Below are positions 1-1,239 of a stretch of 25,861 nt of DNA, piece after piece; positions within the stretch are counted from its first letter, which is position 1; each line of letters opens with the position of its first letter. The DNA is taken from the NCBI GenBank assembly GCA_964481805.1, contig CAYZVE010000001.1, forward strand, positions 13,192 through 39,052. The letters are read 5' to 3'. Below the pieces are notes generated by a model. That model had not been told where the DNA came from and searched no databases. It saw only the letters and a list, made by a program, of their open reading frames with translations. This DNA is from an uncultured archaeon. Lineage in GTDB: Archaea; Aenigmatarchaeota; Aenigmatarchaeia; CG10238-14. Both the position numbers and the translations under genes were made by a program.

Positions 1-319
1 ATGTAAAGATAGTCGACGTCACGATTGTTGAGGTGCTTTCTGTTGTTGTCGTGGTTGTGGTTGTTGTGTAGTCTCGGATTGTGGATGTAAAGATAGTCGA
101 CGTCACGATTGTTGAGGTGCTTTCTGTTGTTGTCGTGGTAGTGGTGGTTGTGTAGTCTCGGATTGTGGATGTAAAGATAGTCGACGTCACGATTGTTGAT
201 GTGCTTTCTGTTGTTGTCGTGGTAGTGGTGGTTGTGTAGTCTCGGATTGTGGATGTAAAGATAGTCGACGTCACGATTGTTGATGTGCTTTCTGTTGTTG
301 TCGTGGTTGTGGTGGTTGT
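1..319. repeat. 84-bp tandem repeat, about 3.8 copies visible (units start at 1, 85, 169, 253)
   Basis: Units are nearly identical and encode DYTTTTTTTTTESTSTIVTSTIFTSTIR on the minus strand. The variable positions (unit positions 32, 56, 62) are all third codon positions. Confidence 0.97.
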
Positions 320-550
320 AGTAGTTACTGTAACGGTTCCATCCTGAATCTCAATTTCCCCCTCTGAGATTTCCAAAACCCCAATTTCAGCCTTAATAAA
401 AGGCATACTCACAAACAAAACAAAAAAGAACGAAAGAAAAACTAAGGTTAGACTGATATTTATTGGGTTTTTTCTCAGCAACTTATCATTCGAGTGGGGT
501 TCAAAGGTAGTTAGAACCTGATTTTTATTATTATTTACATTCTCAAACAT
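1..550 (-). CDS. Secreted or membrane-anchored Thr/Ser-rich (mucin-like) surface protein; 3' end lies outside the window; absent from the ORF track
   Basis: Hand translation from ATG at 550 is open to the window edge: MFENVNNNKNQVLTTFEPHSNDKLLRKNPINISLTLVFLSFFFVLFVSMPFIKAEIGVLEISEGEIEIQDGTVTVTTTT..., i.e. basic residues plus a hydrophobic signal-like segment, followed by 28-aa Thr-rich repeats. Confidence 0.85.
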   Translation of the reverse strand, partial: MFENVNNNKNQVLTTFEPHSNDKLLRKNPINISLTLVFLSFFFVLFVSMPFIKAEIGVLEISEGEIEIQDGTVTVTTTTTTTTTTTESTSTIVTSTIFTSTIRDYTTTTTTTTTESTSTIVTSTIFTSTIRDYTTTTTTTTTESTSTIVTSTIFTSTIRDYTTTTTTTTTESTSTIVTSTIFT

Positions 551-597: not shown

Positions 598-1141
598 TGT
601 CGAATGAGATAAGAACAGGGAAATCGAGGACTAAAATTCAAAAAGGAGGGGTGCTTTTAAGTTATGATTTGCTAACTATTTTCTTCATATGTCGATAATA
701 GAAAAAGTTAATATCGACAGAAAACAAATAATTCATTGGTGTCGAATGTTTAAATTTAAAAAAAATGACGTTGATTTCGACGATATTCTGAAGCAGTTGA
801 ATATGTATACGATGCAGGTTGCGTTAGAATTAGAAGCAATAAAGGGCCTAGGCGATAAGTTTGGTGACATAAACCAAAGGCTCTCAAACCTTGAAAAGAA
901 GATGGACGGGGAATTTGAAAGCAGAAATAACTTCGTACCTTTGATCCTTAAGAACAAAGGTGCCATAAAACTCATTCTACAAAGACATGGAAAAATAAGT
1001 TCATCCAAATTAAGCCAAATCATTAAATTATCTAGGACAAGATGCAATGAATACCTTATCGAAATGGAAAAAGATGGTATTTTAGTGTCGAAAATGGAAG
1101 GAAAAGAAAAATTTTACACCATCAGACGATAGGTTCGACAC
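598..1141. repeat. Dispersed array of TGTCGA(A/T) motifs, mostly as inverted pairs
   Basis: TGTCGA at 598, 690, 740, 1086; reverse complement TCGACA at 714 and 1135; near-match TTCGACG at 776. GTGTCGAA occurs exactly at 739, 1085 and, inverted, at 1134-1141. Confidence 0.75.
689..1132 (+). CDS. Coiled-coil plus C-terminal winged helix-turn-helix DNA-binding protein (ArsR/MarR/TrmB-like fold); true start may be ATG 746
   Basis: C-terminus ISSSKLSQIIKLSRTRCNEYLIEMEKDGILVSKMEGKEKFYTI has the HTH plus beta-wing pattern; heptad-like N-terminal helix; GGTG (738-741) precedes the in-frame ATG at 746. Confidence 0.8.
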   Translation: MSIIEKVNIDRKQIIHWCRMFKFKKNDVDFDDILKQLNMYTMQVALELEAIKGLGDKFGDINQRLSNLEKKMDGEFESRNNFVPLILKNKGAIKLILQRHGKISSSKLSQIIKLSRTRCNEYLIEMEKDGILVSKMEGKEKFYTIRR

Positions 1142-1239
1142 ATAGAATTGATTAATTTTTTCTTTTATTCAACTTTGTCTTACAATTTTCAAGGGAATTT
1201 TCCAATAAAATCATGCCCTTTTTTATGTTGATAAGATTA

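What the first reader, a model, noticed from the sequence alone, without database searches (positions are those of the whole stretch)
598..1141. Winged-helix gene embedded in an array of TGTCGA inverted repeats
Seen: six exact TGTCGA/TCGACA hexamers plus one near-match in about 545 bp; I noticed only about 3 in the other ~25 kb by eye. A rough expectation at ~33% GC is about 0.2 per 545 bp. They form converging pairs: TGTCGATA-N14-TATCGACA (690-719), GTCGAA-N29-TTCGAC (741-781) and GTGTCGAA-N41-TTCGACAC (1085-1141, straddling the stop codon), plus TGTCGAATG repeated at 598 and 740. Sites at both ends of the gene with variable spacing do not fit a single dimer operator. Established: lambda O and several partition genes carry their own binding iterons in or beside the ORF. 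Inference: a self-contained protein-plus-cis-site module (looping autorepressor, centromere-like or origin-like element, or invertible segments) that may be undescribed.
Basis: partly seen in the sequence, partly recalled or inferred. Interest (0 to 1): 0.72.

Follow-up and report, generated by a model that had tools for sequence, protein, structure and literature searches.

The report
Archaeal regulator gene with TGTCGA operators
A small DNA-binding regulator gene of an Aenigmarchaeota (DPANN) archaeon lies inside a cluster of TGTCGA sites that recurs, partly through rare codon choices, at over a hundred related loci; the sites are most likely the protein's own operators, controlling its gene and a neighbouring giant surface-protein gene.

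Summary
Six of the window's 11 TGTCGA/TCGACA hexamers lie in 598-1140, and all stated pairs and coordinates check out.

The gene probably starts at ATG 746, not 689 (128 aa). Four sites therefore sit in the 195-bp divergent promoter region. Sites 690 and 714 bracket the likely BRE/TATA, and 740 abuts the start codon. The other two straddle the stop codon.

Comparative data settle the question. About 100 non-redundant related loci, mostly Aenigmarchaeota MAGs with protein identity down to about 30%, carry the hexamer at 9.2/kb around the gene. Distant flanks have 0.21/kb. Site positions change between clades but the array persists. Intragenic sites are held by rare codons (CGA, TCG, CTG), which are the four most biased codon columns of the gene. 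Both orientations occur, which points to double-stranded DNA.

The protein is a long helix plus a winged helix with an invariant recognition helix (KLSRTRCNEY). It belongs to no curated family.

Best model: an undescribed multi-operator, probably looping, autoregulator. It probably also controls the conserved divergent giant surface-protein gene. Binding by the protein itself is inferred, not shown. I found no support for an origin, a centromere or invertible segments.

The parts
746..1132 (+). Gene for a 128-aa protein: N-terminal long helix (likely coiled-coil dimerisation), flexible linker, C-terminal winged helix-turn-helix with recognition helix KLSRTRCNEY
   Evidence: Pfam HTH_24 scores 31.1 bits against a cut-off of 21.9. 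Homologues are 128 aa and start at this Met. In L007 and L038 an in-frame stop lies 2 codons upstream of the Met. The AlphaFold model has H7-55, linker 56-65 and wHTH 66-126, mean pLDDT 81.
598..603 (+). TGTCGA site 1 (-148), abutting the A/T-rich TATA-like stretch 581-597 of the leftward promoter for the divergent gene
   Evidence: It is conserved at -148/-146 in clade relatives L007, L038 and L039. The promoter assignment is inferred from the sequence.
690..695 (+). TGTCGA site 2 (-56), left arm of the operator TGTCGA-N18-TCGACA
   Evidence: The same N18 bracket around a TATA box occurs in L039, L112, L119, L121 and L122.
701..714 (+). Probable BRE (GAAAAAG, 701-707) plus TATA box (TTAATAT, 708-714) of the wHTH gene, enclosed by sites 2 and 3
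   Evidence: The block GAAAAACTTAATA is conserved in the clade relatives. This is inferred; no transcription start data exist.
714..719 (-). TGTCGA site 3 (-32), right arm of the bracket, overlapping the last base of the TATA box
   Evidence: It is conserved at -30 to -33 in L007, L035, L038, L039 and L040.
740..745 (+). TGTCGA site 4 (-6), directly abutting start codon ATG 746 and overlapping a GGTG Shine-Dalgarno-like element and the predicted transcription start region
   Evidence: It is conserved at -6/-3 in every clade relative that has this region; this shows up as a 'CRM' pseudo-translation.
777..782 (-). One-mismatch site CGTCGA (core GTCGA) at codons 11-13
   Evidence: It is weak and its conservation was not tested.
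1086..1091 (+). TGTCGA site 5 (+340), in codons Val113-Ser114-Lys115 (GTG TCG AAA) and using the rare Ser codon TCG
   Evidence: It is at +340 in all seven clade relatives at 60-75% aa identity. TCG makes up 7% of Ser codons in flanking genes.
1135..1140 (-). TGTCGA site 6 (+389), 3 nt after stop codon TAG 1130-1132, converging with site 5 (49 bp start-to-start)
   Evidence: It is at +389 to +401 in clade relatives. Other clades have sites at +377, in the last codons xxT CGA CAx, and at +397 to +425.
1156..1166 (+). T-rich run (TTTTTTCTTTT), probable archaeal terminator of the wHTH gene
   Evidence: Read from the sequence; inferred.
1..550 (-). 5' part of the divergent gene: start ATG 550, signal anchor, then Thr-rich 28-aa repeats. 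It is the orthologue of a giant Ig/MG2-domain surface protein. Each 84-bp repeat carries a GTCGAC palindrome (12, 96, 180, 264).
   Evidence: The divergent neighbour is conserved in 76 loci.

Best explanation
The TGTCGA hexamers are operator half-sites for the protein encoded at 746-1132. That protein is an undescribed archaeal regulator built from a long dimerising helix, a flexible linker and a winged helix.

Each winged helix reads one hexamer. Because the two DNA-binding heads hang on flexible linkers, a dimer or higher oligomer can take sites in either orientation at a few preferred spacings (about 24, 45-49 and 92-94 bp).

In this window, two sites bracket the BRE/TATA box of the gene's own promoter (TGTCGA-N18-TCGACA). 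A third covers the transcription and translation start. A fourth abuts the promoter of the divergent giant surface-protein gene. Occupancy there would keep TBP/TFB and RNA polymerase off both promoters, giving negative autoregulation and co-repression of the neighbour.

The converging pair at the 3' end (+340 and +389) acts as auxiliary operators. They raise occupancy by looping the roughly 400 bp of gene body to the promoter, as lac O2 does. They may also act as roadblocks.

Shown here: the array, its conservation, its selection at synonymous sites, its geometry relative to the TATA boxes, and the protein's architecture. Inferred: that this protein is the binder, the sign of regulation, and looping.
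For: 1. The array travels with the gene. Around it there are 600 sites in 65 kb (9.2/kb), against 85 in 403 kb (0.21/kb, chance level) in distant flanks of about 100 non-redundant loci. TGTCGA is the most enriched hexamer in the non-coding flanks, 305 observed against 4.5 expected.

2. It persists in very distant relatives: L119, L121, L122, L123, L117 and L125, the last at 67% GC. L118 carries the variant TGTCGG.

3. Sites turn over between clades while the array is kept. For example, +283/+354/+377 in most clades correspond to +340/+389 in the window clade.

4. An unbiased codon scan of 29 representatives at <=75% identity found that the four most biased columns are the motif codons. These are R126 CGA 23/27 (background 2.4%), R119 CGA 20/26, S95 TCG 20/29 (5.6%) and L94 CTG 18/29 (7%) (all 93 genes).

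5. Both orientations occur inside both genes, as expected for recognition of double-stranded DNA.

6. The sites sit at core promoter elements. The N18 bracket around BRE/TATA recurs in six distant lineages. Elsewhere the TATA box abuts TGTCGA or lies 6-12 nt after it.

7. The recognition helix KLSRTRCNEY is invariant across the family. The protein is a helix, a linker and a wHTH.

8. The only other HTH at the locus, on the upstream protein, tracks a different motif (the TGTACA palindrome). It is absent from the window clade, which keeps TGTCGA.

9. A precedent exists for arrays of 6-bp sites next to an archaeal BRE: EarA (PMC5512572).
Against: No binding data exist, so the link between protein and motif is correlative.

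Two family members with the same or a similar helix have no array: L115, and L120, which is operonic.

There is no clean covariation between recognition-helix variants and motif variants. L119 (RTRSSEY) still uses TGTCGA.

The flanks of the hexamer are unconserved, so a 6-bp site is short for specific recognition unless binding is cooperative.

In many clades the hexamer lies just upstream of the BRE/TATA. That geometry also fits activation by TFB/TBP recruitment, so the sign of regulation is open.

The enrichment extending about 1.3 kb into the neighbour's coding region in most clades is more than a simple operator model needs.

Only local DNA could be examined, so a genome-wide regulon cannot be excluded.
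Confidence: 0.6

Rival explanations
1. The hexamers are functional protein-binding sites, but the binder is another factor: a global regulator, a chromatin protein, or a methylation-sensitive factor acting on the embedded TCGA. The wHTH gene and the giant gene would then be its targets.
For: Nothing shown here ties the protein physically to the motif. L115 and L120 have the protein without the array. The array extends far into the neighbouring gene.
Against: Across loci with 27-67% GC, and with or without the giant gene, the one constant is the wHTH gene itself. A global factor should leave sites at other promoters, yet 403 kb of flanks are at chance density with no downstream clusters. The other local HTH tracks a different palindrome.
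Confidence: 0.13
2. The array is a centromere-like or chromosome-organising site, comparable to parS inside spo0J or the AspA/SegB sites. The wHTH would nucleate a spreading or bridging complex used for segregation or domain organisation rather than gene control.
For: There are many sites over 0.5-2 kb, including inside coding sequence, which recalls parS clusters. Foldseek lists the pNOB8 centromere-binding protein AspA among generic wHTH hits (E about 1e-3). A MinD/ParA-type ATPase lies next to the gene in the divergent branches L032-L034 and L122, and within 2 kb in L125.
Against: About 95 main-family loci have no ParA/SegA-type gene within +/-5 kb. In the window the only such gene is 20 kb away (20990-21760) and scores best as the NUBPL/Mrp type. 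The sites sit precisely on the BRE/TATA elements. The conserved partners are a surface protein and a small membrane protein.
Confidence: 0.08
3. The hexamers act in the RNA. Converging copies (UGUCGA...UCGACA) would pair into hairpins, or the motif would be bound in the mRNA, to control stability or translation. The rare codons CGA and TCG might slow ribosomes.
For: Converging pairs could form 6-8-bp stems, such as 1085-1092 with 1134-1141. The selected codons are rare ones.
Against: The same hexamer is kept rather than covarying. Both orientations occur in both genes at similar rates: 81 sense against 91 antisense in the upstream gene. Many sites lie upstream of or around the TATA boxes, so they are not transcribed. 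Rfam finds nothing in 1-1500. The flanks that would extend a stem are not conserved.
Confidence: 0.05
4. The array marks a replication origin with iteron-like sites for a winged-helix initiator encoded at the origin, as with lambda O, plasmid Rep proteins or Sulfolobus WhiP at oriC3.
For: There are repeated sites in and beside the gene for a winged-helix protein, and the intergenic DNA is A/T-rich.
Against: The protein is 128 aa with no initiator or AAA+ domain. No orc1/cdc6 gene lies nearby. GC skew simply follows gene strand. The sites are 6 bp in mixed orientation, not regularly spaced direct iterons. The family is not found on viral contigs.
Confidence: 0.03
5. The inverted hexamers are recombination sites flanking invertible DNA segments, giving phase variation of the surface-protein promoter.
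For: Inverted repeats flank the promoter segment 696-713, and the neighbour is a surface protein, a typical phase-variable gene.
Against: Six independent assemblies from different samples are identical over 551-1240. The arms are only 6-8 bp. No recombinase was found among the annotated window genes (ORF 24568-25827 has no Pfam hit) or among the conserved neighbours. Many sites are direct, not inverted.
Confidence: 0.03

Closest known systems
lac/gal/deo-type repressors with auxiliary operators and DNA looping (lac O2 lies 401 bp downstream inside lacZ; gal OI inside galE). From established knowledge, not tested here.
   Same: There is a main operator at the promoter plus auxiliary sites a few hundred bp away inside or after coding sequence. 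The distance from the promoter group to the 3' group is about 400 bp. The intragenic sites must coexist with codons.
   Different: This is an archaeal BRE/TATA promoter, not sigma-70. The half-sites are 6 bp in variable orientation, not 20-bp palindromes. The loop would enclose the regulator's own gene. The protein fold and family are unrelated to LacI/GalR.
Archaeal autoregulators that bind several sites at their own BRE/TATA: Lrs14 and Ss-LrpB of Sulfolobus (from memory; general repression rule cited in PMC5512572)
   Same: It is a small winged-helix protein with multiple sites overlapping or flanking the BRE/TATA of its own gene. Cooperative multi-site binding is likely.
   Different: NCBIfam Lrs14 gives no hit for the window protein, and the Lrp model scores 18 bits against a cut-off of 233. 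There is no RAM domain. Those systems have sites upstream only. Here sites are also kept inside the ORF, after the stop codon and in the neighbour's ORF.
EarA of Methanococcus maripaludis (PMC5512572)
   Same: An archaeal regulator acts through an array of 6-bp consensus sites placed next to the BRE of a surface-structure operon.
   Different: EarA is an activator with four sites just upstream of the BRE of the fla operon, not at its own gene. No homology to it was shown here, and its motif differs.
Centromere-binding proteins whose sites lie in or beside their own genes: ParB/parS within spo0J, and AspA of pNOB8 (PDB 5k5q)
   Same: A DNA-binding protein has clustered sites at its own locus, partly inside coding sequence. 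AspA appears among the structural matches.
   Different: The main family has no partner NTPase in the neighbourhood. The Foldseek match is generic wHTH (E about 1e-3). The sites sit on promoter elements.
ArsR/SmtB and MarR winged-helix repressors (best structural matches: CadC 1u2w, HlyU 4k2e)
   Same: The winged-helix core fold matches.
   Different: TM-scores are 0.4-0.5 and cover the wHTH only. The NCBIfam ArsR/SmtB model scores 15.7 bits against a cut-off of 55. Dimerisation here would be through a 50-residue N-terminal helix rather than the ArsR alpha1/alpha5 or MarR helices.

Membership tests
Lrp/AsnC family | N-terminal HTH of the AsnC/HTH_24 type | tested here: met
   PF13412 HTH_24 scores 31.1 bits against a cut-off of 21.9, but the domain is at the C-terminus (residues 77-113 of the 128-aa form).
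Lrp/AsnC family | C-terminal RAM (alpha-beta sandwich) effector/oligomerisation domain | tested here: not met
   There is no AsnC_trans_reg hit. The model shows only a long helix plus the wHTH. The NCBIfam Lrp model scores 18.3 bits against a cut-off of 233.
ArsR/SmtB family | Score above the family threshold, with the alpha1-alpha5 dimer architecture | tested here: not met
   NF033788 scores 15.7 bits against a cut-off of 55. Foldseek E is about 6e-4 and TMq 0.44, covering only the wHTH.
Lrs14 family | Match to the NCBIfam Lrs14 equivalog | tested here: not met
   The window protein has no hit at E<=0.1. The distant relative P0042 scores 15 bits against a cut-off of 90.
Partition (centromere + CBP + NTPase) systems | Adjacent ParA/SegA-type NTPase gene in the same cassette | tested here: not met
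   The window has none within 20 kb; the MinD/Mrp-like gene is at 20990-21760. About 95 main-family loci have none within +/-5 kb. One is present only in L032-34 and L122.
Partition (centromere + CBP + NTPase) systems | Clustered specific binding sites at or in the CBP gene | tested here: met
   This feature is shared with operator arrays, so it does not discriminate.
Iteron-type replication origin | Initiator (Rep, Orc1/Cdc6 or WhiP-like) encoded at the site | tested here: not met
   The 128-aa protein has no initiator domain, and no orc1/cdc6 gene was found in the window.
Iteron-type replication origin | Regularly spaced direct repeats flanking an unwinding element; strand-skew switch | tested here: not met
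   Orientation and spacing are mixed. GC skew follows gene strand with no switch at 600-1100.
Invertible promoter (inverton) | Both orientations present in populations; nearby recombinase | tested here: not met
   Six assemblies are identical over 551-1240. No recombinase was found among the annotated window genes or the conserved neighbours. Read-level data were not available.
Autoregulated multi-operator repressor (functional class) | Sites overlap the core promoter of the regulator's own gene and co-occur with the gene across taxa | tested here: met
Autoregulated multi-operator repressor (functional class) | The encoded protein binds the sites and changes transcription | not testable with these tools
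   This needs EMSA, footprinting or DAP-seq, plus in vitro transcription.

The most novel reading that the evidence does not exclude
The array is not just an operator. It would be a locus-restricted nucleoprotein domain of 10-15 hexamers over about 2 kb, written into two coding sequences by synonymous-codon selection. The coiled-coil wHTH would bridge or coat this domain to give a heritable on/off state of a giant host-interaction surface protein in DPANN archaea. Methylation of the embedded TCGA could be involved, as Dam/Lrp does at pap. In some lineages the same domain might double as a chromosome landmark used with a MinD-like ATPase.
Probability: 0.15. Interest if true: 0.85.

Novelty: new variant of a known kind. 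Interest (0 to 1): 0.62.

Why it matters
Almost nothing is known about gene regulation in DPANN archaea, and none of the Aenigmarchaeota genomes recovered here comes from a cultured isolate (all are metagenome assemblies).

This work defines a regulator family from sequence alone: 129 clusters at 50% identity, with an invariant recognition helix. It also gives a candidate DNA motif, the family's promoter architecture, and a likely target, the giant surface protein that such symbionts are thought to use for host contact.

The case is also an unusually clean example of binding sites kept inside coding sequence by selection on synonymous sites. The four most codon-biased positions of the gene are exactly the motif positions, over divergence down to about 30% protein identity.

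The prediction is directly testable with one recombinant 128-aa protein and short DNA duplexes.

Tried and rejected
- Extended motif: the bases flanking the hexamer are not conserved. The 8-bp complementarity of the window's pairs is therefore local, and the unit is (T)GTCG(A/G).
- Known RNA: Rfam finds nothing in 1-1500 at E<=1.
- Known protein family: the PDB sequence search gives nothing below E 0.01. Foldseek gives only generic wHTH. NCBIfam has no family above cut-off.
- Mobile element: there are no relatives on IMG/VR viral contigs.
- Origin: GC skew tracks gene orientation only.
- Inversion: my first inverted-junction query was uninformative, because with perfect inverted arms the inverted sequence equals the native one on the other strand. 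I relied instead on the identity of six assemblies over 551-1240.
- Helical periodicity: there is a weak signal at 11.75-12 bp (R 0.24). It is confounded by codon phase and shared ancestry, so I make no claim from it.
- Covariation of recognition helix and motif: L118 (RTRCSEY) uses TGTCGG, but L119 (RTRSSEY) uses TGTCGA. With so few loci this is inconclusive.
- First clustering null: overlapping words gave 13 of 300 simulations at or below the observed score. These probably came from self-overlapping A/T words, which I did not check. I replaced it with non-overlapping counts.
- Literature: searches for the motif and for the family found nothing relevant.

Full report
**Observation.** TGTCGA or its complement occurs 11 times in the 25,861-bp window. 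Six of these lie at 598, 690, 714(-), 740, 1086 and 1135(-). Shuffles predict 4.08 for the whole window, or about 0.09 per 545 bp. Apart from words inside the 84-bp tandem array at 1-325, this is the most clustered hexamer in the window. In a null that searches all hexamers and all positions, 2 of 500 simulated sequences reached the same score. An earlier version of that null used overlapping words and gave 13 of 300. The window alone is therefore significant but not overwhelming.

**Gene model.** ORF 689-1132 (147 aa) carries a C-terminal HTH_24 winged helix. Sixteen of 19 database homologues are 128 aa and align only from Met20. In relatives L007 and L038 an in-frame stop lies two codons before that Met. 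The conserved block GAAAAACTTAATA, a BRE/TATA-like element, lies inside the supposed N-terminal extension. The start is therefore most likely ATG 746.

The divergent minus-strand gene starts at ATG 550, which leaves a 195-bp intergenic region. Four sites fall in it:
- 598 abuts the A/T-rich TATA-like stretch (581-597) of the leftward promoter.
- 690 and 714 bracket the BRE/TATA (701-714) as TGTCGA-N18-TCGACA.
- 740 abuts the start codon and overlaps a GGTG Shine-Dalgarno-like element.

Sites 1086 (codons GTG TCG AAA) and 1135 (3 nt after TAG) converge across the stop codon. A T-run follows at 1156-1166.

**Taxon and context.** Named homologues are from Candidatus Aenigmarchaeota. The rest of the window is a glycolysis and glycogen cluster. 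Six independent assemblies carry the identical locus.

**Comparative test.** I fetched 108 related loci from genome and metagenome collections and a further 17 for more distant family members. All 108 encode the recognition helix SRTRCNE.

In about 100 non-redundant loci, the region from -200 to stop+80 holds 600 TGTCGA sites in 65 kb (9.2/kb). DNA more than 300 bp downstream or more than 2 kb upstream holds 85 in 403 kb (0.21/kb). That is chance level, with no secondary clusters downstream. In the non-coding flanks TGTCGA is the top hexamer, 305 observed against 4.5 expected. GTCGA is the top pentamer. Flanking bases are not conserved.

Positions are conserved within clades. Most clades have sites at about -130(+), -85(-), -55 or -35(+), +118(-), +283(+), +354(+), +377(-) and +397 to +425. 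The window clade has -148, -56, -32, -6, +340 and +389. Sites therefore turn over while the array is maintained.

**Selection inside coding sequence.** Over 93 genes, the motif-forming codons are strongly preferred:
- Leu94 is CTG in 74 (8.9% of Leu codons in flanking genes).
- Ser95 is TCG in 80 (7.2%).
- Arg119 is CGA in 75 (3.5%).
- Arg126 is CGA in 81 (3.5%).

An unbiased scan of every codon column in 29 representatives at <=75% identity ranks exactly these four columns first (G = 149, 131, 88, 63). Ile39 ATC, part of the +118 site, also ranks high.

The enrichment continues into the divergent neighbour. A second peak lies at -800 to -600. There, Val followed by Asp or Glu uses GTC in 83 of 163 cases within the first 1.3 kb, against 11 of 160 further in. 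Sense and antisense orientations are about equal (81 against 91). This argues for a double-stranded DNA element rather than an RNA one.

**Promoter geometry.** The bracket TGTCGA-N18-TCGACA enclosing a BRE/TATA recurs in the window, L039, L112, L119, L121 and L122. Other lineages have the TATA box directly abutting TGTCGA (L008, L011, L017, L032-34, L123), often as TGTCGACCGACA. Others have TGTCGA 6-12 nt upstream of the TATA box (L010, L016, L018, L019, L028, L049, L104).

In upstream non-coding DNA, converging pairs prefer 24 or 44-47 bp, and diverging pairs prefer 24 or 49 bp. Over the whole array the spacing peaks are 20-24, 45-49 and 90-94 bp.

**Protein.** AlphaFold (17-sequence alignment, mean pLDDT 81) gives a helix at 7-55, a low-confidence linker at 56-65 and a winged helix at 66-126. 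Foldseek finds only generic ArsR/SmtB, MarR, AspA and Z-alpha winged helices at E about 1e-3. PDB sequence search and NCBIfam give nothing above threshold.

A profile search of 1.84 billion representatives finds 129 clusters (77 at E<=1e-10), 120-240 aa long. Most of the 23 sampled keep GLSRTRCNEY. Distant members keep the sites:
- L125 (67% GC, helix RVRANEY, next to a 5,048-aa divergent gene) has TGTCGA at -251, -216 and -58 and TGTCGG at -79.
- L118 uses TGTCGG/CCGACA upstream and three copies just after the stop.
- L115 and L120 have none.

**Neighbours.** In 76 loci the divergent neighbour is a giant surface protein with MG2/Ig-like domains. In most clades it has an N-terminal cytoplasmic HTH and a membrane anchor. 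That HTH co-occurs with a separate TTGTACA-N4-6-TGTACAAC palindrome: 48 loci have both, 16 have neither and 9 are discordant. Both are absent from the window clade, which keeps TGTCGA. This dissociates TGTCGA from the other HTH at the locus. A small membrane coiled-coil protein is conserved downstream in 33 loci, but not in the window.

**Interpretation.** The simplest account is that the hexamers are half-sites for the encoded protein, which autoregulates and probably co-regulates the divergent surface-protein gene. In the window the bracket around the BRE/TATA and the site on the start region favour repression. The 3' pair about 400 bp away fits auxiliary operators that loop to the promoter, as in lac, gal and deo. 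A coiled-coil dimer with flexibly tethered heads explains the tolerance of both orientations at a few discrete spacings.

Binding, the sign of regulation and looping are all inferred. The extension of sites into the neighbour's coding sequence hints at a larger nucleoprotein domain, which the simple model does not need.

**Rivals.**
- Another binder cannot be excluded. It is disfavoured because the wHTH gene is the one constant at these loci and the flanks are at chance density.
- A centromere-like role has only weak hints. A MinD-like ATPase is adjacent in L032-34 and L122 and within 2 kb in L125, but none is near about 95 main-family loci.
- The origin, inverton and RNA readings each fail specific tests.

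**Known relatives and novelty.** Functionally this resembles multi-operator looping repressors and archaeal autoregulators such as Lrs14 and Ss-LrpB. EarA gives a precedent for arrays of 6-bp sites beside a BRE (PMC5512572). It meets the thresholds of none of the protein families I tested. Literature searches found no description of the family or the motif.

I rate it a new variant of a known kind: an undescribed regulator family whose operator array is conserved across a phylum and partly encoded through synonymous codons.

Noticed in passing
window 1-325 (within minus-strand gene 1-550): There are 3.9 copies of an 84-bp tandem repeat at 97% identity, encoding Thr-rich 28-aa units (TTTTTTTTTESTSTIVTSTIFTSTIRDY) of the divergent surface protein. 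Each unit contains a GTCGAC palindrome (12, 96, 180, 264), which is the motif core on both strands, encoded by the rare Ser codon TCG. Public contigs holding this protein end about 420-740 bp upstream of the regulator gene, which suggests the repeat breaks assemblies.
   Followed up: partly
related loci, e.g. L024 3875-4828(-), L011, L016, L057; about -165 relative to the regulator start: In most other clades the divergent giant protein starts with a cytoplasmic winged helix (PEGLT..GLHRHT) followed by a membrane anchor. A palindrome TTGTACA-N4-6-TGTACAAC sits in the shared intergenic region. The two features co-occur (48 both, 16 neither, 9 discordant), which suggests a membrane-tethered transcription factor with its own operator.
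   Followed up: partly
related loci, -1300 to -300 relative to the regulator start (inside the upstream gene): A second peak of TGTCGA density (6-10/kb at -800 to -600) lies inside the neighbour's coding sequence. Val-Asp/Glu uses GTC in 51% of cases there against 7% further into the same genes.
   Followed up: yes
window 689-745: Public gene calls give this protein as 147 aa from ATG 689. Homologues and the promoter position indicate a 128-aa product from ATG 746, so the database start is probably wrong.
   Followed up: yes
window 1240-24258: This is a dense carbohydrate cluster: TIM, class I (DeoC-type) aldolase, two PfkB kinases, PEP synthase, three GH57, SIS, GT4/GT5, GH15, phosphoglucomutase, glycogen synthase, GalT-like, debranching enzyme, GAPDH and PGK. 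That is a complete glycogen and lower-glycolysis set in a DPANN genome.
   Followed up: partly
window 20990-21760 (-); L032-L034 about 250 bp downstream (convergent); L122 1607-1915 (+); L125 4970-5420: A MinD/ParA/Mrp-type P-loop ATPase (SGKGGVGKTT) lies 20 kb from the regulator in the window. It lies directly beside the regulator gene in the most divergent branches of the family.
   Followed up: partly
related loci, downstream convergent gene (e.g. L024 5478-6227, L018): A small membrane protein with a coiled-coil tail (100-170 aa, no Pfam hit) is conserved downstream in 33 loci. In the window TIM takes that position.
   Followed up: no
codon 89 of the regulator gene (nt +267; window about 1013-1015): Ser89 is AGC in 11 of 22 representatives (background 14%). 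It is the fifth most biased codon column and is not part of any TGTCGA site. This is unexplained.
   Followed up: no
window 733-1047 (-): A 104-aa antisense ORF overlaps the regulator gene. Nothing supports it as a gene, and conservation follows the plus-strand frame.
   Followed up: no
L118 (P0033), L032-L034, L123: Variant operators occur in GC-richer relatives: TGTCGG/CCGACA in L118 (helix RTRCSEY) and the compact palindrome TGTCGACCGACA just after the TATA box in L032-34 and L123.
   Followed up: partly
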